Assembly (NCBI RefSeq): GCF_900083515.1 | Contig: NZ_LT671858.1 | Span: forward strand, 1,020,001-1,052,000 | Length of the DNA: 32,000 bases | Source of the DNA: Cuniculiplasma divulgatum | GTDB lineage: Archaea > Thermoplasmatota > Thermoplasmata > Thermoplasmatales > Thermoplasmataceae | Direction: 5' to 3' | In this document: positions 7,670-26,214 of the stretch, piece by piece | Layout: every line of letters starts with the position of its first letter | Position numbering within the stretch: position 1 is the stretch's first letter | Notes under the pieces: generated by a model | The model's input: the letters and a program-made list of their open reading frames with translations, nothing else | What the model was told of the DNA's origin: nothing | Databases searched by the model: none | Program-made: the position numbers and the translations under genes

Positions 7670-8461
7670 TTTTATTTACACCTATGGAGTCGGGGCACTC
7701 CCGCAAGGTCGAAACACCTTAGCACCTGAACAAACAATTTTTATCTGCTAATAGATCTTCTTTCAGGTAAATTCAGGATTTCAATATCCTATTTAAGAAT
7801 TTAACGAGAATTTGATGATAATTAGTATTGATACATTTGTTGGATGTTAACAACAAATGCAAGAACATGTGCTGTGAAAGTTAAAAAAATTGAGCAAACA
7901 TACTTCGTGTTTACCCTAAATATTTCTGAACATAGTTTTTTACTTAAGGTAAATAATATAGGAAAATCTGTCTTTCCATTCCTTTTTCCAAATCTTCATT
8001 TTGTGATTAATAATAGTTTTAATAAATTTAAATTATCATCATTTTCCATAGGTTGAAGATTTGAATAACTGACATTTGCATTTTACTAATCCTTGTAAGA
8101 CCTTTTCAGAAAATATTGGAAATGATACTTTTTTAGTTTGAATCTATTGTGTTTGTATCGTGAATGATGATATGCAGGAAATAAAATATAATGTATACTC
8201 TGAAAATCTAAATCAGTCCATGTGAAAAGTTGGAATATGACAGGTTCTAATTGGAGTCTTATTTAACTAAAGTAATAGATGATAATTTACGAGAAGGAAT
8301 AAAGAAGTCTTAGATTTGAAATTAAAAAGATTAGAAGACCAAAGATACAAATTCAAACATTTAAATAAAAAAGATACAGTTATATAATGAAAAGAAGTAT
8401 AGAAAATTAGGCAATTGATTAATGCAAAGAATTATTTAATTACAAATTAGGGGGGTTATAG

Positions 8462-8620
8462 ATGGAAAGAAAACAGTATACTGCTAATGAAAAGTTAAAA
8501 ATAATAAATAGAAGTAGGTACATTAAAATTGTTAAAAGTGAAAAAGACCTAAAAGAAAATGATATATTTGTCCAAATTAAAAAAAATGGAAAAAAGGTAT
8601 ATATAGTAGCTCAGAAGTAG
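8462..8620 (+). CDS. hypothetical 52-aa lysine-rich protein (possibly a remnant of a transposase HTH N-terminus)
   Basis: Below the ORF-track size cutoff. ATG at 8462, preceded by an AGGGGGG run (8449-8455) 6 nt upstream, and ends with TAG at 8618-8620. Translation: MERKQYTANEKLKIINRSRYIKIVKSEKDLKENDIFVQIKKNGKKVYIVAQK. The segment RKQYTANEKLKII resembles IS3-type OrfA N-termini (from memory). Confidence 0.3.
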   Translation: MERKQYTANEKLKIINRSRYIKIVKSEKDLKENDIFVQIKKNGKKVYIVAQK

Positions 8621-8629
8621 TTTTATAAA

Positions 8630-9610
8630 GTGGATTACTTGTTTTTTTACCCGAATAGTATAGAAATTATAAGCAGACGTATAAATTATAGTCATTCCGA
8701 AGGATTACTTAAGAGAACTGTCAGAGAACGGATAACCTTCCAAAATAAGTCTGAAGATGGATTGAATGAAATAATTTTAGAAATTGAAAATTTTAAGACG
8801 AATCTAAAAATAAGTAATACCATTGGAAATGAACTGACATATTTACCAAATTATAAACTGATTAAGAGGGAGGATATCCCACAAAATATTAAGGAAAGTA
8901 TAACAACGGATGACCCTGATAAAAGGATATATACCTTAGCAATTGCATTAAATGAAACAATAGAAAAGGATGAATATTGTTCAATATTTTTGGATTATAC
9001 TGAATATCCGAAAGAGGAAAAAAATAGTAAATTAATAGATGGTAATACCGAGTCTAGTCACTTCATGTATAAGGAAGCTGAATATATGGATTTGATACTT
9101 TTTTATGGTGAAGAAACTCTTAGCATTGCAAATAGCTGGGGAAATGGACTACAAATAGATGAAACAAATGATCCGTACATTTTCGGTGGTCTTGTTTCGA
9201 ATGTACAGGATGATGACTCCTTTAATGAGCTAGATGAGTTAAGAATGCATTTAGATATGAGAAAAAATAGTTACTCATTTAGTCTTTCCAATGACTATAG
9301 AAATGATAAGAATATAGATAGCATTGCCATTTTTTATAGTGTAAAACCTGAGAAAAATGAATACAGTTTAATCCAAACATTAGCTGTAATTACATTTTTA
9401 CTCCCATTCACAGGTCTCACAGCACTTTATTTTAAGAATATTTCATATTTATTTGATTCATTGGAGATTGAAAGCGTTTTCATTTTAACCTTAGCCTTTG
9501 CACAGACAAGAACAAGACTACTTTCACATGAGAAGTACATAAGAAATATAGTCATATTTGCTGGTTTTTTATTTAAATTAATTTTAGGCCTATATGTGAC
9601 CTACGTATAA
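8630..9610 (+). CDS. hypothetical protein: ~250-aa soluble N-domain plus C-terminal membrane anchor of about 3 TM helices
   Basis: 326 aa with a GTG start 9 nt after the small ORF. No motif I recognise. Hydrophobic segments at the C-terminus: LIQTLAVITFLLPFTGLTALYF, VFILTLAFAQT, IVIFAGFLFKLILGLYVTYV. Confidence 0.6.
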   Translation: MDYLFFYPNSIEIISRRINYSHSEGLLKRTVRERITFQNKSEDGLNEIILEIENFKTNLKISNTIGNELTYLPNYKLIKREDIPQNIKESITTDDPDKRIYTLAIALNETIEKDEYCSIFLDYTEYPKEEKNSKLIDGNTESSHFMYKEAEYMDLILFYGEETLSIANSWGNGLQIDETNDPYIFGGLVSNVQDDDSFNELDELRMHLDMRKNSYSFSLSNDYRNDKNIDSIAIFYSVKPEKNEYSLIQTLAVITFLLPFTGLTALYFKNISYLFDSLEIESVFILTLAFAQTRTRLLSHEKYIRNIVIFAGFLFKLILGLYVTYV

Positions 9611-9991
9611 TGAAGAAGTATTTTTTCATTAAATTGATGTGGTCATTTTAAATTTTATTAAATAGGATTATATCCTCGCAAGCTGCCTGGTTGATGGTGA
9701 AAGAGATACTAGCGTTTTAACTTCTTGCGAAGTCCCATTAATAAATGTTCAAAAAGAGACTATTGAGGTTTTTAATTTCCTCTCTATTTTCCACAAGTAT
9801 GCCAGAACTTAACGTGTAGAAGAGAAAATAGAACAATTTCACCTGATTACTTATAGAGTTATCCTTTTTTTCTTCTATCTTTTTTGAAAGATTAAGAGCT
9901 CACGCTATCCATTAACGATCTTAAATGCATGTATATTATAAACAAAACAAACAAACGAACTTCATTCTAACTCGTTTCCCTGCTGTACTGA

Positions 9992-10339
9992 TTACCTGTG
10001 AAAATGAAATACCCTTTTGATGACGCAATAGAAAATATCAGGATAGTCAAGAAAGTTCATGAATGATATTCTATCATGGATCTCCTTCTCAGAATGTTCA
10101 TCCATTAAATTGTATATGGAATGAATGTAGAGATCCTTTACCATTGTTATGATTGGAATCTTGGGTCTTCCTCCCTTATCTGTATCATTACAATACAGAT
10201 CCTTAAGAAGTGGATCAAATCCACTCCAGTCAATGGCATGCTTCATGAATGCAAATGGACCATTTAAGAAATATTGTTTGTATTTCTCCGTAAGAGCTGT
10301 GTCGAAGAGATCACTCACGCAGTAACATGCGTGTTTCAT
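9992..10339 (-). pseudogene. IS5-family transposase, N-terminal (DUF772-type) fragment only
   Basis: GGRPKIPIITMVKDLYIHSIYNLMDEHSEKEIHDRISFMNFLDYPD matches the conserved N-terminal region of IS5/InsH-type transposases. The frame breaks right after DYPD. No DDE catalytic portion follows before the next gene at 9610. Confidence 0.7.
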
Positions 10340-10594
10340 GAATAAATTTTATGGTGTTTTCTGGGAGATTTTCAGAACTCCCCTTCAAATATTATCTGCA
10401 GAAATATTTAAAAGTGCTTTCCTTTCTATTACGAGGGTTATTAGTTATAAAAGAAGTCTTGGAGTATAATAAAGTCATCCATTTGGGTACCTTTCAGTTA
10501 TCGATAAATGAATTTTTCATATATAATTGATTGATCGTAACTTCAATTTACAAAACGGAATAATTAAGAATATAAATATTGTTTTAAGAACAAC

Positions 10595-10602
10595 TTTATA
10601 AA
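10595..10602 (+). promoter_or_regulatory. putative TATA box (TTTATAAA) for the ATPase/TOPRIM operon
   Basis: Lies about 29-36 nt upstream of the ATG at 10631. That spacing fits a leaderless or near-leaderless archaeal transcript. Such strings are common in an AT-rich region. Confidence 0.3.
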
Positions 10603-10630
10603 ATTAATAGGTATACAAAGACAAATAAAA

Positions 10631-11908
10631 ATGAGGATTAAAGAAATTAATATTGAGAGCTTCAAAGGAATTGATTCACTGGAATTTAAGCCGAGGCTTC
10701 TAAATGTTATCGTTGGCAGAAATAATACCGGAAAAACTTCAGTTCTAGAAGCTATTGCTGTGACAATGGACAGAGTGTTCTTTGAACAAAATTATTCAGA
10801 TTCCCCATCCTCTATAGTAAACTATTTAGTAAATGCACTTGAAATTAACTTAGTTCTTACCGGAAATACAAATAGCAGCAAATCCTTAAAGGTTGAAAAA
10901 ATAAGTGAACAGGATGTATATAAGAATATTGCCAGCACTATTTTAGAACGGGTTAATCAAATTAGAAAAGACAAACGGTATAATTTGGAAAGAAAAAATA
11001 GTCCTGGCAAGAATAAGAATGCAACCAAGGTTGAGATCCATGATGAAATTTCTATCATCCAACAAACCATAAATAATGTTATTAAAGATCAGTTAAATTC
11101 CGATAATAATAAAAAATTATTTCAAGACTGTGTGTTAATTAAATATAATAGAGGGGAGTCAACATTGTTTAAGGGAGAAAATTTTAGGTTGAATGAAATA
11201 ATAATGACCGGTGAGGTCATCGAAAGACTTTACAAAAATAAAAAGTTGCAATTAAAATATCTGCTTGATTATCATATGAGGCATGATTTAAATCCGTTTG
11301 TTAACTCCAGAAAAGTAAAAAATAGGAAATTTGGAGAATATAAAAAGATAATTTTAGTTAATGATCCAGTCAAAACTTTGAACACGCTCTTGGACCAAAA
11401 GGACGGAAATCAGGAACTTGCATTGAAAATTGAAGAAATACTAAAAAGTGATATAATTTTACCAAACCTGAAAAGATTTGATTTTACTGAATTAGTATTT
11501 GATACGGTAAATGGCACAAAAACAGTGAAATTTAGTATGATGGGAGAGGGGTTTCAAACACTTGTTGCTATTTTAGCAATATTGAAATCAAACGAAAATT
11601 CGAAATCTGTTATCTTATTAGAGGAGCCAGAGATTCACATGCATCCCGGATACGTGACAGAATTGGTCAAGTATATCTCACAAATCTCAAGTTCTTTAAA
11701 AATTCAGCTATTCATAACGACACATAGTTCAGATTTAATACAATCACTATTTAACCAGGAACAAACCCAAATTCAAGAATTTCTAAAAAGGAATCTAGTG
11801 ATGCTTAGATTGAATAAAATGGATGACTCCATAATTGGAGAAAGAATGACGTATAAAGAAGCGAAAGAAAGTGTTTATGATCTAGAACTAGACCTGAGAG
11901 GTATTTGA
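10631..11908 (+). CDS. ABC-type (AAA_15/AAA_21, OLD/AriA-like) ATPase
   Basis: 425 aa. N-terminal IESFKG...VIVGRNNTGKTSVLEAI (Walker A), signature-like MGEGFQ, Walker B VILLEEPE followed by IHMHPG (nt 11609-11650), and H-loop ITTHS. A long K/N/E-rich insert sits between Walker A and the signature. Confidence 0.8.
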   Translation: MRIKEINIESFKGIDSLEFKPRLLNVIVGRNNTGKTSVLEAIAVTMDRVFFEQNYSDSPSSIVNYLVNALEINLVLTGNTNSSKSLKVEKISEQDVYKNIASTILERVNQIRKDKRYNLERKNSPGKNKNATKVEIHDEISIIQQTINNVIKDQLNSDNNKKLFQDCVLIKYNRGESTLFKGENFRLNEIIMTGEVIERLYKNKKLQLKYLLDYHMRHDLNPFVNSRKVKNRKFGEYKKIILVNDPVKTLNTLLDQKDGNQELALKIEEILKSDIILPNLKRFDFTELVFDTVNGTKTVKFSMMGEGFQTLVAILAILKSNENSKSVILLEEPEIHMHPGYVTELVKYISQISSSLKIQLFITTHSSDLIQSLFNQEQTQIQEFLKRNLVMLRLNKMDDSIIGERMTYKEAKESVYDLELDLRGI

Positions 11909-12511
11909 TTGAAAAAGCTTGTTATAATAGAGGGCTTACATGATGGAATTTTTCTTAAGAAAATAATGGATAACAGTATTGGAAATTCAGAATATCTCTA
12001 TTACAAAAATCGAGGAAAAAAGGAACAAAAGAGGTATAGTGAAACTGACATTTTAAGAAAATTTATTAGTGAAAAAAATAAATTAGATTTTTTAATAAAA
12101 GAGGAGGGTGGAAAAAGTTTTGTAAAGAATTTTTTTTTGGGGAATATTATCAACTTTTCACTAAATTATAGTTCTCTAGAACTAACTGTAATCTTTGATC
12201 ATGACGGTAAACATCCGACACAGGAAATCACCCAATGGAAGAAGGATTTTGAATCTAAAAATAATAATGTCACATTTGATAATGTTAGTAATCCAGTAAA
12301 AATTACGAAAGGATTGTATTGGAGAAAGTTCGACCTATATCAAATTAGAGGAAAAAATACAGTTAAATTGAATTACTTTCATTTAGTTACATTTGACAAA
12401 TCCCTAGAAAGCGAAGTTGCTGAATTTTGTAATAAAAGTAAGAAACAAATTACCGAACGGGACATTCAAGACTTTGCATCACAGGTTCCTTTAAAAAATT
12501 TATTTCCTTAA
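11909..12511 (+). CDS. small TOPRIM-like protein (putative nuclease partner of the ATPase)
   Basis: 200 aa. The TTG start directly abuts the ATPase TGA. KLVIIEGLHDGIFL (Glu8, nt 11930-11932), EEGGKS, and VIFDHDG (D97-x-D99, nt 12197-12205) follow the E...DxD order of TOPRIM, as in OLD and DUF4435 proteins. Confidence 0.55.
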   Translation: MKKLVIIEGLHDGIFLKKIMDNSIGNSEYLYYKNRGKKEQKRYSETDILRKFISEKNKLDFLIKEEGGKSFVKNFFLGNIINFSLNYSSLELTVIFDHDGKHPTQEITQWKKDFESKNNNVTFDNVSNPVKITKGLYWRKFDLYQIRGKNTVKLNYFHLVTFDKSLESEVAEFCNKSKKQITERDIQDFASQVPLKNLFP

Positions 12512-12584: not shown

Positions 12585-12658
12585 CGCCCGAGCCGGGATT
12601 CGAACCCGGATCAAAGGCTCCGCAGGCCTCTAGGATATCCAAATTACCCCACTCGGAC
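12585..12658 (-). tRNA. tRNA-Arg (anticodon GCG), no encoded CCA
   Basis: Hand-folded cloverleaf. Acceptor GUCCGAG/CUCGGGC. D-loop has A14, G18G19 and A21. Anticodon stem GAGGC/GCCUU with loop CUGCGGA. T-arm CCGGG-UUCGAAU-CCCGG. Discriminator G. 74 nt. An A/T-rich TATA-like tract lies upstream at about 12668-12685. Confidence 0.85.
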
Positions 12659-25658: not shown

Positions 25659-25840
25659 TAGTGCAGAATTTAATTACACTATTTAATGATTTATAGCATT
25701 TAAGTGAGAATTATGTTTCAATTTACTTAATTTTATGCAGATTTTGTATACAAAATTACAATCAAATACTAAAATAAATTAGTAGATATAAAAAAGAGAT
25801 ATATTACTATATAATTAATTTTTTACAAAACTAAAAAAAG

Positions 25841-25915
25841 CGGGCTTGGTGGGATTCGGACCCACGATCACCGACTTAGAAGGACGGTGCCTTATCCAGA
25901 CTAGGCCACAAGCCC
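25841..25915 (-). tRNA. tRNA-Arg (anticodon UCU), no encoded CCA; atypical T-loop
   Basis: Hand fold. Acceptor GGGCUUG/CAAGCCC. D-arm GCCU-AGUCUGGAUA-AGGC. Anticodon arm CCGUC-CUUCUAA-GUCGG with a U30-U40 mismatch. T-arm GUGGG-UCCGAAU-CCCAC. Discriminator G followed by C and a T7 run (minus strand). 75 nt. Confidence 0.75.
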
Positions 25916-25938
25916 ATGCAAGGAAAATACTAACTGGC

Positions 25939-25950
25939 ATAAATATTTTT
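25939..25950. promoter_or_regulatory. palindromic TATA-like element (ATAAATATTTTT) between divergent tRNA-Arg and the Pcc1-like gene
   Basis: The AAATATTT core (25941-25948) is a perfect palindrome. It lies about 30 nt from the tRNA 5' end (25915) and about 27 nt from the GTG at 25972. Confidence 0.35.
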
Positions 25951-25971
25951 GAGTTAAATGCATATCTAATT

Positions 25972-26214
25972 GTGGTAGAGAAAACAATTTCAGTTACATT
26001 AGATTTTGAAAAGAGCTGGTATTTGAAGCAAATACTTGCAATACTACCAAATATTGATGAAATATCCGGTAGAACTCAAATAAACACTCGGGAAACTGAA
26101 CAATCCTTTCAAATTTATATAGAAGCGAGGGATACTGTTGCAATAAGGGCTGCACTAGGTTCGATAACAAGATGGATTCTAATTGCAGACAGGTTAGTTA
26201 AAGAGGTGCAATGA
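25972..26214 (+). CDS. pcc1: KEOPS complex subunit Pcc1-like protein
   Basis: I trimmed the track ORF 25846..26214, whose 5' part overlaps the tRNA on the other strand. The in-frame GTG at 25972 gives 80 aa. The motif FQIYIEARDTVAIRAALGSITRWILIADRL matches the Pcc1/CTAG signature (..A.D..alRAalns..rwl). It has the usual archaeal position next to prefoldin beta. Confidence 0.6.
   Translation: MVEKTISVTLDFEKSWYLKQILAILPNIDEISGRTQINTRETEQSFQIYIEARDTVAIRAALGSITRWILIADRLVKEVQ

What the first reader, a model, noticed from the sequence alone, without database searches (positions are those of the whole stretch)
10595..12511. Translationally coupled ABC/AAA_15-type ATPase plus 200-aa mini-TOPRIM protein: candidate split-OLD / PARIS-like defence pair in an archaeal tRNA-adjacent island
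Seen directly, ATPase: ORF 10631-11908 has Walker A GRNNTGKTS (aa 29-37), a signature-like MGEGFQ, Walker B VILLEEPE immediately followed by IHMHPG, and H-loop TTHS. About 270 aa of K/N/E-rich insert lies between Walker A and the signature. Seen directly, partner: its TGA (11906-11908) is directly abutted by the TTG start of a 200-aa ORF. That ORF opens with KLVIIEGLHDGIFL (Glu8) and later carries EEGGKS and VIFDHDG (D97-x-D99). Established knowledge: the EEPE-x-H-x-HP arrangement marks the AAA_15/AAA_21 ABC ATPases found in OLD nucleases, Gabija GajA, PARIS AriA, Septu PtuA and AbiLi. An early strand-end Glu plus a later DxD is the TOPRIM catalytic layout used by OLD, AriB (DUF4435) and RloB-type partners. 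Inference: this is a two-gene ATPase-sensor plus TOPRIM-nuclease effector. No UvrD helicase is adjacent, so it is not Gabija. No HNH gene is present, so it is not Septu. No reverse transcriptase is present. The partner is much shorter than the AriB or AbiLii sizes I recall. It may therefore be a minimal, divergent or undescribed archaeal variant. The context supports an accessory role: AT-rich DNA, an IS5 fragment 300 nt upstream, and a tRNA gene 74 nt downstream.
Basis: partly seen in the sequence, partly recalled or inferred. Interest (0 to 1): 0.85.

Follow-up and report, generated by a model that had tools for sequence, protein, structure and literature searches.

The report
Archaeal ABC-ATPase plus mini-TOPRIM gene pair
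Two tightly coupled genes in the acid-loving archaeon Cuniculiplasma divulgatum encode an OLD-type ATPase and a 200-residue TOPRIM-like probable nuclease; the pair recurs across archaea and is probably an untested antiviral module related to, but distinct from, the bacterial PARIS system.

Summary
ORF A (10631-11908, 425 aa) is an intact AAA_15/AAA_21 ABC ATPase. ORF B (11909-12511, 200 aa, TTG start) begins directly after A's TGA stop.

B has no Pfam hit, but an exhaustive search found about 55 clusters of ~200-aa relatives. Their conserved residues are E8-G9-x-x-D12, E45, K64-x-E66-x-G68, D97-x-D99 and L166-E167. These follow the same motif order as the phage P2 Old TOPRIM domain. Family members hit Pfam DUF3226, OLD-like_TOPRIM, PADLOC PDC-M38B and mad4.

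An ATPase of this type sits immediately upstream of a B-type gene in all 10 loci with readable upstream sequence; 2 short contigs show only an abutting gene fragment. The loci span Thermoplasmatota, Halorussus and Altiarchaeales, in unrelated genomic contexts. The pair's GC is below its flanks in 7 of 8 loci, and both genes are under purifying selection.

The pair is not PARIS, Gabija, Septu, AbiL or a fused OLD nuclease. Its closest catalogued relative is the untested PADLOC candidate PDC-M38, matched only weakly.

One caveat: a confident AlphaFold model (pLDDT 94) found no significant Foldseek match, so the TOPRIM fold is not confirmed structurally.

The defence role and a PARIS-like mechanism are inferred. 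Overall this is a new variant of a known kind, of moderate interest.

The parts
10595..10603 (+). TTTATAAAA, a possible archaeal TATA-box-like element about 30 nt upstream of the ATPase start codon (putative promoter)
   Evidence: Read directly from the sequence. This is inference only; no archaeal promoter tool was available.
10631..11908 (+). Gene A: 425-aa OLD-type ABC ATPase (AAA_15/AAA_21). Walker A is at nt 10715-10741, the signature-like GEGFQ at 11540-11557, Walker B/EEPE at 11609-11632 and the H-loop THS at 11717-11728. A variable ~266-aa insert covers aa 38-303. The C-terminal tail DLRGI is invariant.
   Evidence: Pfam AAA_21 8e-22 and AAA_15 2e-21. PADLOC PDC-M38A 1.7e-24 over the full length. 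PDB relatives are OLD 6p74, PtuA, AriA and GajA. Catalytic motifs and the tail L418/D421/L422/R423/G424 are invariant in 8 of 8 partner-linked ATPases. 100% identical to a Cuniculiplasma divulgatum protein. dN/dS 0.12-0.32.
11897..11911 (+). Coupling junction: AGAGG (Shine-Dalgarno-like, also the Arg423-Gly424 codons), then the TGA stop, then the abutting TTG start of gene B
   Evidence: AGAGG lies 7-8 nt before the B start, and stop and start abut, in all 6 loci compared. The start codon varies (TTG, GTG, ATG) at the same position. Because the ATPase tail R-G is invariant, the AGAGG conservation cannot be attributed to an SD alone.
11909..12511 (+). Gene B: 200-aa DUF3226-like mini-TOPRIM, the probable metal-dependent nuclease effector. 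E8-G9-x-x-D12 is at nt 11930-11944, K64-x-E66-x-G68-K69 at 12098-12115, D97-x-D99 at 12197-12205 and S165-L166-E167 at 12401-12409.
   Evidence: 55 representative clusters, nearly all ~200 aa. Conserved residues. Family members hit DUF3226 (30/47), OLD-like_TOPRIM (13/47), PDC-M38B (up to 20/47), mad4 (11/47) and RT-Toprim_I-C (9/47). Best PDB sequence hits are 2p62 (PH0156) and 1t6t. Motif order matches the P2 Old TOPRIM. AF2 model has pLDDT 94.2, with (beta-alpha)x4 followed by a beta-rich C-terminal half. dN/dS 0.25-0.57.
12585..12658 (-). tRNA-Arg(GCG): a neighbour, not part of the module
   Evidence: ARAGORN and Rfam. It is adjacent only in close relatives L001, L002 and L018, and absent near the pair in L008, L010, L013, L015, L026 and L027. 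No repeat of its 3' end was found upstream.
7829..10401 (.). Variable 2.6-kb low-GC segment next to the module. It holds a 52-aa ORF (8462-8620), a 326-aa Pfam-blank ORF (8630-9610) and the DUF772/IS5 transposase fragment (9992-10339). It is context, not part of the module.
   Evidence: Replaced by ~186 nt in the 96%-identical contig L018, which keeps genes A and B. Absent next to distant family members. GC is 26-31%. DUF772 hit.

Best explanation
The locus is a two-gene operon encoding an OLD-clade ABC ATPase (A) and a minimal, DUF3226-like TOPRIM metal-dependent nuclease (B). It belongs to a mainly archaeal, horizontally mobile family. The most likely function is an antiviral or anti-mobile-element module built on the ATPase-sensor plus nuclease-effector plan of PARIS, AbiL, HEC-01 and PDC-M38.

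**Shown here**
- Both proteins are intact and under purifying selection.
- All ATPase catalytic motifs are conserved.
- B's family conserves a set of seven acidic residues, one lysine and glycines, in the same order as the OLD TOPRIM motifs.
- The genes are translationally abutting and always adjacent, and they diverge in step.

**Inferred by analogy with PARIS (PMC11464382)**
- A oligomerises through its variable insert and holds B inactive.
- A viral protein or nucleic-acid cue, sensed by the fast-evolving insert, together with ATP binding or hydrolysis, releases or activates B.
- B then cleaves a nucleic acid (tRNA or other RNA, or DNA) using a two-metal TOPRIM site formed by E8, D12, E66, D97, D99 and E167. 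This arrests growth and blocks virus spread.

The substrate, the trigger and the role of the invariant ATPase C-terminal tail (DLRG[IVL]) are unknown.
For: **ATPase class**
- Pfam AAA_21 and AAA_15.
- PADLOC: PDC-M38A over the full length, plus AriA, AbiLi, Old, GajA and PtuA models.
- PDB profile hits, in order: OLD 6p74 (1e-11), PtuA, AriA, GajA, then Rad50.
- Walker A, signature, Walker B and H-loop are invariant in 8 of 8.

**Partner**
- 55 representative clusters of ~200 aa.
- Conserved E8, G9, D12, E45, K64, E66, G68, D97, D99, L166 and E167.
- Hits to DUF3226, OLD-like_TOPRIM and Toprim, and to PDC-M38B, mad4, RT-Toprim_I-C and HEC-01B.
- PDB hits 2p62 and 1t6t, with the EG, (A/E)EGK and DxD motifs collinear.
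- 2P62 is also the top HHpred hit of a validated lactococcal AriB whose fold matches the OLD TOPRIM (PMC11381338).
- The four motifs occur in the same order as in P2 Old.

**Coupling and co-evolution**
- Adjacency in all 10 loci with a readable upstream gene; in 2 more short contigs the upstream fragment abuts.
- Identities fall together: A 84/47/35% against B 85/35/30%.

**Accessory and mobile character**
- A different context at every distant locus: MmeI-type R-M plus IS21, DDE transposase, NYN and Fic, a HerA-like ATPase, Cas6 nearby, HsdM nearby.
- Pair GC is 3-12 points below its flanks in 7 of 8 loci, with a GC dip in the window itself.
- An IS5 fragment lies beside it.

**Selection and RNA partners**
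- dN/dS is below 1 for both genes.
- No associated ncRNA.
Against: - **Fold not confirmed.** Foldseek with the confident model (pLDDT 94.2) found no match at E<=1e-3 in PDB or BFVD. No TOPRIM, OLD, AriB or 2p62 entry appears in the top 50; the top hits are generic alpha/beta folds with TM 0.2-0.45.
- **Weak direct hits.** The window protein itself has no Pfam hit and only an E=8.8e-4 hit to PDC-M38B, over its N-terminal ~120 aa. Only 2 of 10 sampled relatives reach Pfam's DUF3226 cut-off. hhalign against a single P2 Old sequence was not significant.
- **No experimental support.** Nothing has been tested for this family or for PDC-M38, and the related ATPase plus TOPRIM candidate HEC-01 gave no protection in E. 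coli (10.1101/2024.01.29.577857).
- **Some contexts are plain chromosome.** Halorussus, L026 and L030 show housekeeping neighbours.
- **Not seen on viruses.** No copy was found on IMG/VR viral contigs.
- **Stable position in Cuniculiplasma.** The pair sits at the same locus in three lineages.
Confidence: 0.6

Rival explanations
1. The pair is a housekeeping nucleic-acid maintenance or processing module. It would be analogous to RecF (ABC ATPase) plus RecR (TOPRIM), to Rad50-type repair, or to an RNase M5-like TOPRIM RNase with an ATPase chaperone.
For: - Rad50 and RecF N-terminal similarity.
- 1t6t, a small TOPRIM protein, is among the PDB hits.
- Several loci are flanked by ordinary chromosomal genes.
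- The position is stable in three Cuniculiplasma lineages.
Against: - The best ATPase relatives are defence ATPases (OLD, PtuA, AriA, GajA), ahead of Rad50.
- The neighbourhood differs at every distant locus.
- The pair's GC is lower than its flanks.
- The family is small: 55 clusters among 1.84 billion.
- One strain may carry a frameshifted partner, which is unexpected for an essential function.
- B conserves a full set of catalytic acidic residues typical of OLD-type nucleases.
Confidence: 0.1
2. The pair is a selfish toxin-antitoxin-like addiction or stabilisation module of mobile elements. B would be the toxin and A its ATP-dependent antitoxin, with no dedicated antiviral sensing.
For: - Association with IS and transposase genes.
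- Low GC relative to flanks.
- Pfam's AAA_21 label is 'putative AbiEii toxin, type IV TA'.
- AriA is deposited in the PDB as 'AriA antitoxin'.
- A possible effector-inactivating frameshift in L018.
Against: - Not found on viral contigs.
- Many copies sit in chromosomal contexts with no mobile genes.
- Mechanistically this overlaps with abortive-infection defence, and known relatives of this architecture act as defence systems (PMC11464382).
Confidence: 0.15
3. The pair is one part of a larger system that includes the upstream 52-aa and 326-aa (membrane) ORFs of the low-GC patch.
For: These ORFs are co-linear with the pair in the window and in the 90-94%-identical contigs L001-L004. They share the low GC.
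Against: L018 (96% identical) keeps the pair but lacks the whole 7829-10401 segment. None of the distant loci has these ORFs.
Confidence: 0.03
4. The pair is a decaying remnant of a horizontally acquired element and is non-functional.
For: - An IS fragment lies beside it.
- The partner has relaxed dN/dS (0.57 against L001).
- L018 carries a 2-nt deletion in the SLE motif.
Against: - Both ORFs are intact in the window, in L001-L006 and in P0001.
- dN/dS is below 1 for both genes.
- All catalytic residues are intact.
Confidence: 0.04

Closest known systems
PADLOC candidate PDC-M38 (untested 'phage defence candidate'; Payne et al., bioRxiv 10.1101/2024.01.29.577857)
   Same: - A two-gene cassette of an ABC ATPase followed by a small partner.
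- The window ATPase aligns end to end with PDC-M38A (E=1.7e-24).
- PDC-M38B models are the only recurrent specific PADLOC hit for the partner family, in up to 20 of 47 members.
- One PDC-M38 cassette uses the same ATPase family as HEC-01.
   Different: - The partner match is weak (E=8.8e-4 for the window protein; 1e-3 to 4e-8 across the family). It covers only the N-terminal ~120 of the 219-250 model positions.
- Two of five partners tested from other loci have no hit at all.
- The ATPase scores equally well against the generic AAA_15/AAA_21-length 'AriA' models and against AbiLi.
- PDC-M38 was derived from RefSeq cassettes embedded in BREX, DISARM or type I R-M systems. This family is archaeal wherever an organism is named.
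PARIS (AriA/AriB; Class 4 OLD)
   Same: - Split ABC ATPase plus TOPRIM nuclease encoded by two adjacent genes in the order ATPase then nuclease.
- The ATPase profile hits AriA structures 8ux9 and 8v45 (2e-7).
- PH0156/2P62 is the closest solved sequence relative both of this partner family and of a validated AriB (PMC11381338).
   Different: - The partner is 200 aa rather than ~280-300 aa.
- No family member hits DUF4435 or the PADLOC AriB models.
- The ATPase is 425 aa against ~460 aa.
- The trigger (Ocr-like proteins), the 6:3 complex and tRNA-Lys cleavage are untested here.
Pfam DUF3226 (PF11536; structure 2p62, P. horikoshii PH0156)
   Same: - 30 of 47 family members hit DUF3226 (best 4e-7).
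- The EG, (A/E)EGK and DxD motifs are collinear with PH0156.
- Similar size (200 against 241 aa).
   Different: - The window protein itself has no hit.
- Only 2 of 10 sampled members reach the gathering score, and alignments stop at about profile position 120 of 208.
- Foldseek did not list 2p62 among its top matches.
OLD family nucleases, Class 1 and 2 (P2 Old, TsOLD, GajA)
   Same: - ATPase clade: the best PDB hit is 6p74.
- The TOPRIM motifs share order and character with P2 Old: hhhhEGxx[DE], [DE]GK[GS], hhhDxD and a late hE.
- 13 of 47 members hit OLD-like_TOPRIM.
   Different: - ATPase and TOPRIM are separate polypeptides rather than fused.
- There are about 28 extra residues (a beta-alpha unit carrying E45) between motifs 1 and 2.
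- No UvrD-type helicase neighbour is present, so this is not Gabija.
- hhalign against a single P2 Old sequence was not significant.
HEC-01, AbiL (AbiLi/AbiLii-RloB) and MADS Mad3/Mad4 (DUF4276)
   Same: All are ABC ATPase plus small TOPRIM-superfamily partner pairs (10.1101/2024.01.29.577857; PMC12065111). The ATPase hits AbiLi, HEC-01A and mad3 models, and partners hit mad4 (11 of 47) and HEC-01B (1 of 47 for each of two models).
   Different: - There are no AbiLii/RloB hits.
- mad4 hits are weak and N-terminal only.
- The other MADS genes (methyltransferase and the rest) are absent from the window.

Membership tests
PARIS (AriA/AriB) | AriA: AAA_15/AAA_21 ABC ATPase encoded directly upstream of the effector | tested here: met
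   AAA_21 8e-22 and AAA_15 2e-21. AriA PDB chains hit at 2e-7. The genes abut. This feature is generic to many systems.
PARIS (AriA/AriB) | AriB: DUF4435 (PF14491) TOPRIM protein of ~280-300 aa | tested here: not met
   DUF4435 is not among the Pfam families matched by the 47 family members. No PADLOC AriB model is matched. B is 200 aa.
PARIS (AriA/AriB) | Trigger-induced release of AriB from an AriA hexamer and cleavage of tRNA | not testable with these tools
   Needs biochemistry or a multimer model. The mechanism is taken from PMC11464382.
PADLOC PDC-M38 | Protein A matches a PDC-M38A model | tested here: met
   PDLC04608 at E=1.7e-24, aa 2-423 against profile positions 2-366 of 367. It ranks between first and fourth for the five other partner-linked ATPases tested. 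The score is not clearly above the generic AriA and AbiLi models.
PADLOC PDC-M38 | Protein B matches a PDC-M38B model | tested here: inconclusive
   The window B hits PDLC04619 at E=8.8e-4 (17 bits), over the N-terminal half only. Up to 20 of 47 relatives hit a PDC-M38B model. Two of five partners from other loci have no hit.
Pfam DUF3226 (PF11536) | Score at or above the gathering cut-off (27 bits) against PF11536 | tested here: not met
   The window B has no hit. Among relatives, 30 of 47 hit at E<=0.1, but only P0032 (30.4 bits) and P0048 (27.0) of 10 sampled reach the cut-off. B is therefore a peripheral relative, not a member by Pfam's criterion.
TOPRIM superfamily (OLD-like) | Conserved Glu after strand 1 and DxD after a later strand, plus OLD-type extra acidic residues | tested here: met
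   E8 (>=90%), D12, E66 (invariant), D97 (invariant), D99 and E167. The AF2 model places E8, E66 and D97-D99 at the C-terminal ends of strands 2-7, 61-65 and 90-97. Motif order equals that of P2 Old.
TOPRIM superfamily (OLD-like) | TOPRIM three-layer alpha/beta fold with the acidic residues clustered | tested here: inconclusive
   The confident model has a (beta-alpha)x4 N-terminal half. Foldseek found no TOPRIM structure and nothing at E<=1e-3.
OLD nucleases, Class 1 to 3 | ATPase and TOPRIM fused in one polypeptide, with a UvrD helicase (Class 2) or a reverse transcriptase and ncRNA (Class 3) | tested here: not met
   There are two separate ORFs. The flanking ORFs scanned are not helicases or reverse transcriptases, and no other long ORF lies between them. 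No ncRNA was found. Class definitions come from PMC10568477.
Septu (PtuA/PtuB) | HNH nuclease PtuB next to the ATPase | tested here: not met
   The partner has no HNH hit. The neighbours are an IS fragment, a tRNA and a 293-aa protein with no significant Pfam hit.
AbiL | AbiLii (RloB-type) partner | tested here: not met
   The ATPase hits AbiLi (2.5e-21), but no family member hits AbiLii or RloB models.
MADS | Multi-gene system with a methyltransferase plus Mad3 and Mad4 | tested here: not met
   Only weak hits were found: MAD3 at 38.5 bits against a 420-bit cut-off, and mad4 in 11 of 47 relatives. No methyltransferase or other MADS genes lie nearby.

The most novel reading that the evidence does not exclude
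The pair represents an archaea-wide, minimal PARIS-like immune module that has not been described or tested. A 200-aa TOPRIM effector would be kept in check by an OLD-type ABC ATPase and released on sensing of archaeal viruses. Its beta-rich C-terminal half has no detectable structural relative. Control could run through the ATPase's invariant C-terminal DLRG tail. The released effector would cleave tRNA or another RNA. If so, this would be the smallest known stand-alone defence TOPRIM nuclease and one of the few ABC-ATPase defence systems native to archaea.
Probability: 0.25. Interest if true: 0.6.

Novelty: new variant of a known kind. Interest (0 to 1): 0.4.

Why it matters
ABC-ATPase plus TOPRIM modules (OLD, Gabija, PARIS, retron I-B) are a major theme in bacterial immunity, but almost all experimental work is bacterial.

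This family has four features that make it worth following up:
- It is archaeal wherever an organism is named: Thermoplasmatota, Halobacteria, Altiarchaeales, Aenigmarchaeota and Nitrososphaerota.
- Its effector is unusually small.
- It escapes Pfam and is barely detected by PADLOC models, so standard defence-finder surveys of archaea probably under-count it.
- The Halorussus homologues offer a route to testing in genetically tractable haloarchaea.

A minimal TOPRIM effector would also help define the catalytic core and the regulatory interface shared by PARIS-like systems.

The architecture itself is already familiar, and a related candidate is already catalogued, so the finding is incremental rather than surprising.

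Tried and rejected
1. **Word-indexed homologue searches for B.** These gave only 3 and then 8 hits. The exhaustive HMMER search was needed.
2. **First AF2 model.** The 4-sequence alignment gave pLDDT 48, which was useless. The 47-sequence alignment gave pLDDT 94.
3. **Foldseek against PDB and BFVD.** No significant hits. The model coordinates are not exposed, so no distance check was possible.
4. **hhalign of the family profile against a single P2 Old sequence.** Only motif 1 aligned and it was not significant. phmmer of single members against PDB found nothing.
5. **The search for related loci.**
   - A4 found nothing in the genome collection or in viral contigs.
   - The source genome seems to be absent from the genome collection, because the FTHFS scan found only a 68% MAG. 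That negative is therefore weak.
6. **Synteny test for an 'empty site' in a relative.**
   - The FTHFS locus L016 ends too early.
   - The metagenome scan gave only the near-identical L018.
   - Presence/absence at this locus in more distant Thermoplasmatales could therefore not be tested.
7. **tRNA-integration hypothesis.** No direct repeat of the tRNA 3' end was found, and tRNA adjacency is not recurrent. Rejected as a property of the module.
8. **Retron or ncRNA partner.** Rfam found only the tRNA.
9. **Literature.** There are no papers mentioning DUF3226 or PDC-M38 by name.


Full report
**1. Observation**

The window carries ORF A (10631-11908, +, 425 aa, ATG) and ORF B (11909-12511, +, 200 aa, TTG). 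A's TGA stop at 11906-11908 is followed directly by B's TTG start.

All the quoted motifs are present at the stated residues:
- A: Walker A GRNNTGKTS 29-37, MGEGFQ 304-309, VILLEEPE 327-334, IHMHPG 335-340, TTHS 363-366.
- B: IIEGLHD 6-12, IKEEGGKS 63-70, VIFDHDG 94-100.

The stated neighbours are also real:
- tRNA-Arg(GCG) lies at 12585-12658 on the minus strand.
- The ORF at 9992-10339 (-) is a DUF772/IS5-type transposase fragment.
- GC falls from about 37% to 26-31% between roughly 8000 and 13000.

The ~266-aa insert is not compositionally special (K+N+E 30% against 27% overall). The tRNA adjacency is incidental, as shown in section 5.

**2. Source organism**

A 100%-identical 425-aa protein is annotated 'ATP-binding protein [Cuniculiplasma divulgatum]' on a 1.94-Mb contig. 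JGI calls it 'predicted ATP-dependent endonuclease of OLD family'. The rest of the window is ordinary chromosome: FTHFS, MFS and ABC transporters, folate and riboflavin genes. The nearest genome in the searchable collection is a Thermoplasmata MAG with 68% FTHFS identity. The source genome itself appears not to be in that collection.

**3. The ATPase**

A hits Pfam AAA_21 (8e-22) and AAA_15 (2e-21).

In PADLOC the top hits are the 'AriA' models and PDC-M38A. The 'AriA' model lengths, 373 and 304, match those of Pfam AAA_15 and AAA_21, so I treat them as generic. PDC-M38A is the only top model that aligns end to end (aa 2-423 against positions 2-366 of 367). AbiLi, NsnB, Old, GajA and PtuA models follow.

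A profile of eight partner-linked ATPases finds, among solved structures, class 1 OLD 6p74 (1e-11), PtuA, AriA, GajA and only then Rad50. All the nucleotide-binding motifs are invariant in that alignment. So, unexpectedly, is the extreme C-terminal tail L-x-x-D-L-R-G-[IVL]. The insert between Walker A and the signature is the least conserved region, with column identity 0.31-0.36 against 0.56-0.66 in the core.

The ATPase family is large: at least 596 clusters at E<=1e-10. Every relative for which a source names an organism is archaeal: Thermoplasmatota, Cuniculiplasma spp., Altiarchaeales, Aenigmarchaeota, Nitrososphaerota and six Halorussus species.

**4. The partner**

*Family and conserved residues.* B has no Pfam, NCBIfam or PHROG assignment. 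Its only hit is a weak one to PADLOC PDC-M38B (E=8.8e-4, N-terminal 121 aa). The word-indexed search found only three near relatives. Reading all 1.84 billion representatives found 55 clusters, almost all ~200 aa. In a 47-sequence alignment:
- E66, D97 and L166 are invariant.
- E8, G9, D12, E45, L62, K64, G68, D99 and E167 are at least 90% conserved.

*Hits when members are scanned individually.*

| Model | Members hitting (of 47) | Best E-value |
|---|---|---|
| Pfam DUF3226 | 30 | 4e-7 |
| Pfam OLD-like_TOPRIM | 13 | 1.9e-4 |
| Pfam Toprim | 2 | 0.024 |
| PADLOC PDC-M38B (several models) | up to 20 | 3.8e-8 |
| PADLOC mad4 | 11 | 1.3e-5 |
| PADLOC RT-Toprim_I-C | 9 | 4.6e-7 |

Only 2 of 10 sampled members reach Pfam's DUF3226 cut-off, and alignments stop around profile position 120 of 208. 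The family is therefore peripheral to DUF3226, with a divergent C-terminal half.

*Link to solved TOPRIM proteins.* The family profile's best PDB sequence hits are 2p62 (PH0156, E=0.004) and 1t6t. The EG, (A/E)EGK and DxD motifs are collinear with PH0156. Independently, a validated lactococcal PARIS AriB has PH0156/2P62 as its top HHpred hit and an OLD-TOPRIM-like fold (PMC11381338).

*Motif comparison with phage P2 Old.* Reading the P2 Old TOPRIM region directly gives the same four motifs in the same order:

| Motif | P2 Old | B |
|---|---|---|
| 1 | VLLVEGKTE | VIIEGLHD |
| 2 | VAVDGKGS | IKEEGGKS |
| 3 | ILADCDF | VIFDHDG |
| 4 | GDIEAV | KSLESEV |

B has about 28 extra residues between motifs 1 and 2.

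*Structure.* An AlphaFold2 model built on the 47-sequence alignment is confident (pLDDT 94.2, pTM 0.89). It shows four beta-alpha units, with E8, E66 and D97-D99 at the C-terminal ends of strands. A beta-rich segment (121-162) and three helices follow.

*The unresolved point.* Foldseek found no match at E<=1e-3 in PDB or BFVD, and no TOPRIM structure among the top 50. hhalign against a single P2 Old sequence aligned only motif 1, and not significantly. The TOPRIM assignment therefore rests on motifs and sequence profiles. I judge it likely, but it is not structurally confirmed.

**5. Co-conservation and context**

In every locus where the upstream region is readable, a 413-445-aa AAA_15/AAA_21 ATPase lies immediately upstream of a B-type gene. 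Stop and start abut, are 1-2 nt apart, or overlap.

| Locus | Relationship or organism | Neighbouring genes |
|---|---|---|
| L001-L006 | 85% aa relative of B | same gene order as the window |
| L007 | 39% relative of B | upstream fragment abuts; DDE transposase downstream |
| L008/L009 | 35% relative of B | MmeI-type R-M plus IS21 |
| L010/L011 | 30% relative of B, archaeal | ribosomal genes, Cas6 about 4 kb downstream |
| L012 | 27% relative of B | upstream fragment abuts |
| L013/L014 | 24% relative of B | NYN and Fic |
| L015 | 26% relative of B | short contig |
| L026 | family member | CDC48, aRF1 |
| L027 | family member | HerA/DUF87 ATPase overlapping the pair |
| L028 | Halorussus pelagicus | ordinary chromosomal genes |
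| L029 | Altiarchaeales | HsdM about 4 kb downstream |
| L030 | second Cuniculiplasma sp. | PolD, CTP synthase |

The partners in L026-L030 are full-length family members, with E from 1e-37 to 1e-54 against the family profile.

Further points:
- A and B identities to the window proteins fall together (A 84/47/35%, B 85/35/30%).
- An AGAGG motif 7-8 nt before the B start is conserved in all six junctions compared. It coincides with the invariant Arg-Gly codons of the ATPase tail, so it cannot be credited to a Shine-Dalgarno function alone.
- The B start codon is TTG, GTG or ATG at the same position.
- Pair GC is 3-12 points below the flanks in 7 of 8 loci.
- tRNA adjacency occurs only in the close Cuniculiplasma relatives, and no repeat of the tRNA 3' end bounds the island.
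- No relative was found on IMG/VR contigs.
- Both genes are under purifying selection: dN/dS is 0.12-0.32 for A and 0.25-0.57 for B.
- No ncRNA other than the tRNA is detectable.

**6. Local polymorphism**

Contig L018 is about 96% identical to the window. It keeps the pair, the tRNA and the downstream genes. It lacks window 7829-10401, which holds the 52-aa and 326-aa ORFs and the IS5 fragment, and has about 186 nt there instead. The low-GC patch is therefore composite, and those ORFs are not part of the module.

In L018 the partner also carries a 2-nt deletion exactly in the S165-L166-E167 codons, giving a frameshifted 171-aa ORF. The ATPase there is intact. This is either real effector inactivation or an assembly error.

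**7. Mechanism**

*Shown:* two intact, co-evolving, translationally abutting genes; a catalytically complete OLD-clade ABC ATPase; and a partner with an OLD-like set of acidic residues.

*Inferred by analogy with PARIS:* in PARIS an AriA hexamer holds AriB. A viral trigger plus ATP releases AriB, which then dimerises and cleaves tRNA-Lys (PMC11464382). By analogy, A oligomerises and restrains B, its variable insert senses an invader, and released or activated B cleaves RNA or DNA at a two-metal site. This leads to growth arrest. The substrate, the trigger and the stoichiometry are unknown.

I put about 0.85 on 'ABC ATPase plus TOPRIM-type nuclease module' and about 0.6 on the full defence reading.

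*Rivals:*
- A TA-like addiction module (0.15).
- A housekeeping repair or processing pair, RecF/RecR-like or RNase M5-like (0.1).
- A decaying remnant (0.04).
- Part of a larger system with the upstream ORFs (0.03; largely refuted by L018).

**8. Comparison with known systems**

The architecture works like PARIS (Class 4 OLD), AbiL, HEC-01 and Mad3/Mad4, but the pair is not a member of any of them:
- No DUF4435 or AriB hit, and no AbiLii/RloB hit.
- No HNH nuclease, helicase, reverse transcriptase or methyltransferase neighbour.
- The ATPase and TOPRIM are not fused, unlike Class 1-3 OLD (PMC10568477).

The closest catalogued entity is PADLOC PDC-M38. It is one of 145 untested candidates derived by 'guilt-by-embedding', and one of its cassettes shares its ATPase family with HEC-01 (10.1101/2024.01.29.577857). 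The ATPase fits PDC-M38A. The partner fits PDC-M38B only weakly and only in its N-terminal half. HEC-01, the tested ATPase plus TOPRIM candidate, gave no protection in E. coli. The Cuniculiplasma genome paper lists R-M, TA and CRISPR islands but not this pair (PMC5155288). No searchable paper mentions DUF3226 or PDC-M38.

**9. Verdict**

It is a divergent, mainly archaeal variant of the familiar ABC-ATPase plus TOPRIM two-gene theme, with a minimal 200-aa effector that standard annotation misses. There is no experimental support, and the fold is not confirmed by structure comparison. Novelty: a new variant of a known kind. Interest is moderate (0.4).

Noticed in passing
window 7829-10401 compared with L018 1699-1884: A 2.6-kb indel separates the window from a 96%-identical metagenome contig (ACXJ01010829.1). 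The window segment holds a 52-aa ORF, a 326-aa Pfam-blank ORF with a hydrophobic C-terminus, and the DUF772/IS5 fragment. L018 has ~186 unrelated nt there instead. GC in 8001-9000 is only 25.6%.
   Followed up: partly
L018 3394-3909 (equivalent to window 12401-12409): A 2-nt deletion lies exactly in the codons of the invariant S165-L166-E167 motif and frameshifts the partner gene to 171 aa, while the adjacent ATPase is intact (dN/dS 0.12). This could be real loss of the effector or an assembly error in an old metagenome.
   Followed up: partly
window 11882-11905 (ATPase aa 418-425) and alignment A6: The extreme C-terminal tail of the ATPase, L-x-x-D-L-R-G-[IVL], is invariant in 8 of 8 partner-linked ATPases that share as little as 24% identity overall. 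Its role is unknown; it may be a docking element. It also explains the conserved AGAGG just before the partner's start codon.
   Followed up: partly
L027 1707-5109: In one relative a HerA-like DUF87 ATPase (491 aa) overlaps the start of the ATPase-partner pair by 4 nt, suggesting a three-gene variant of the module.
   Followed up: no
window gene B aa 121-200 (nt 12269-12508): The confidently modelled C-terminal half of the partner consists of long beta-hairpins followed by three helices. It is not covered by the DUF3226 or PDC-M38B alignments, and the full model found no significant Foldseek match.
   Followed up: partly
L030 6001-7926 (Cuniculiplasma sp. MAG, GCA_054609075.1): A second, divergent copy of the module (ATPase 35% identical) sits at a different chromosomal site in another Cuniculiplasma genome, next to PolD and CTP synthase. 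The genus therefore carries at least two lineages of the pair.
   Followed up: partly
window 25840-25915 (-): A second tRNA-Arg (anticodon TCT) lies between an ABC peptide-transporter operon and small ORFs. The mechanical ORF 25846-26214 (+) overlaps it.
   Followed up: no
Genome-contig collection: A protein from this window is 100% identical to a Cuniculiplasma divulgatum entry. Even so, the genome-collection scans found neither the partner gene nor a near-identical FTHFS, so the source genome seems absent from that collection. Negative results from it should be read with that in mind.
   Followed up: partly
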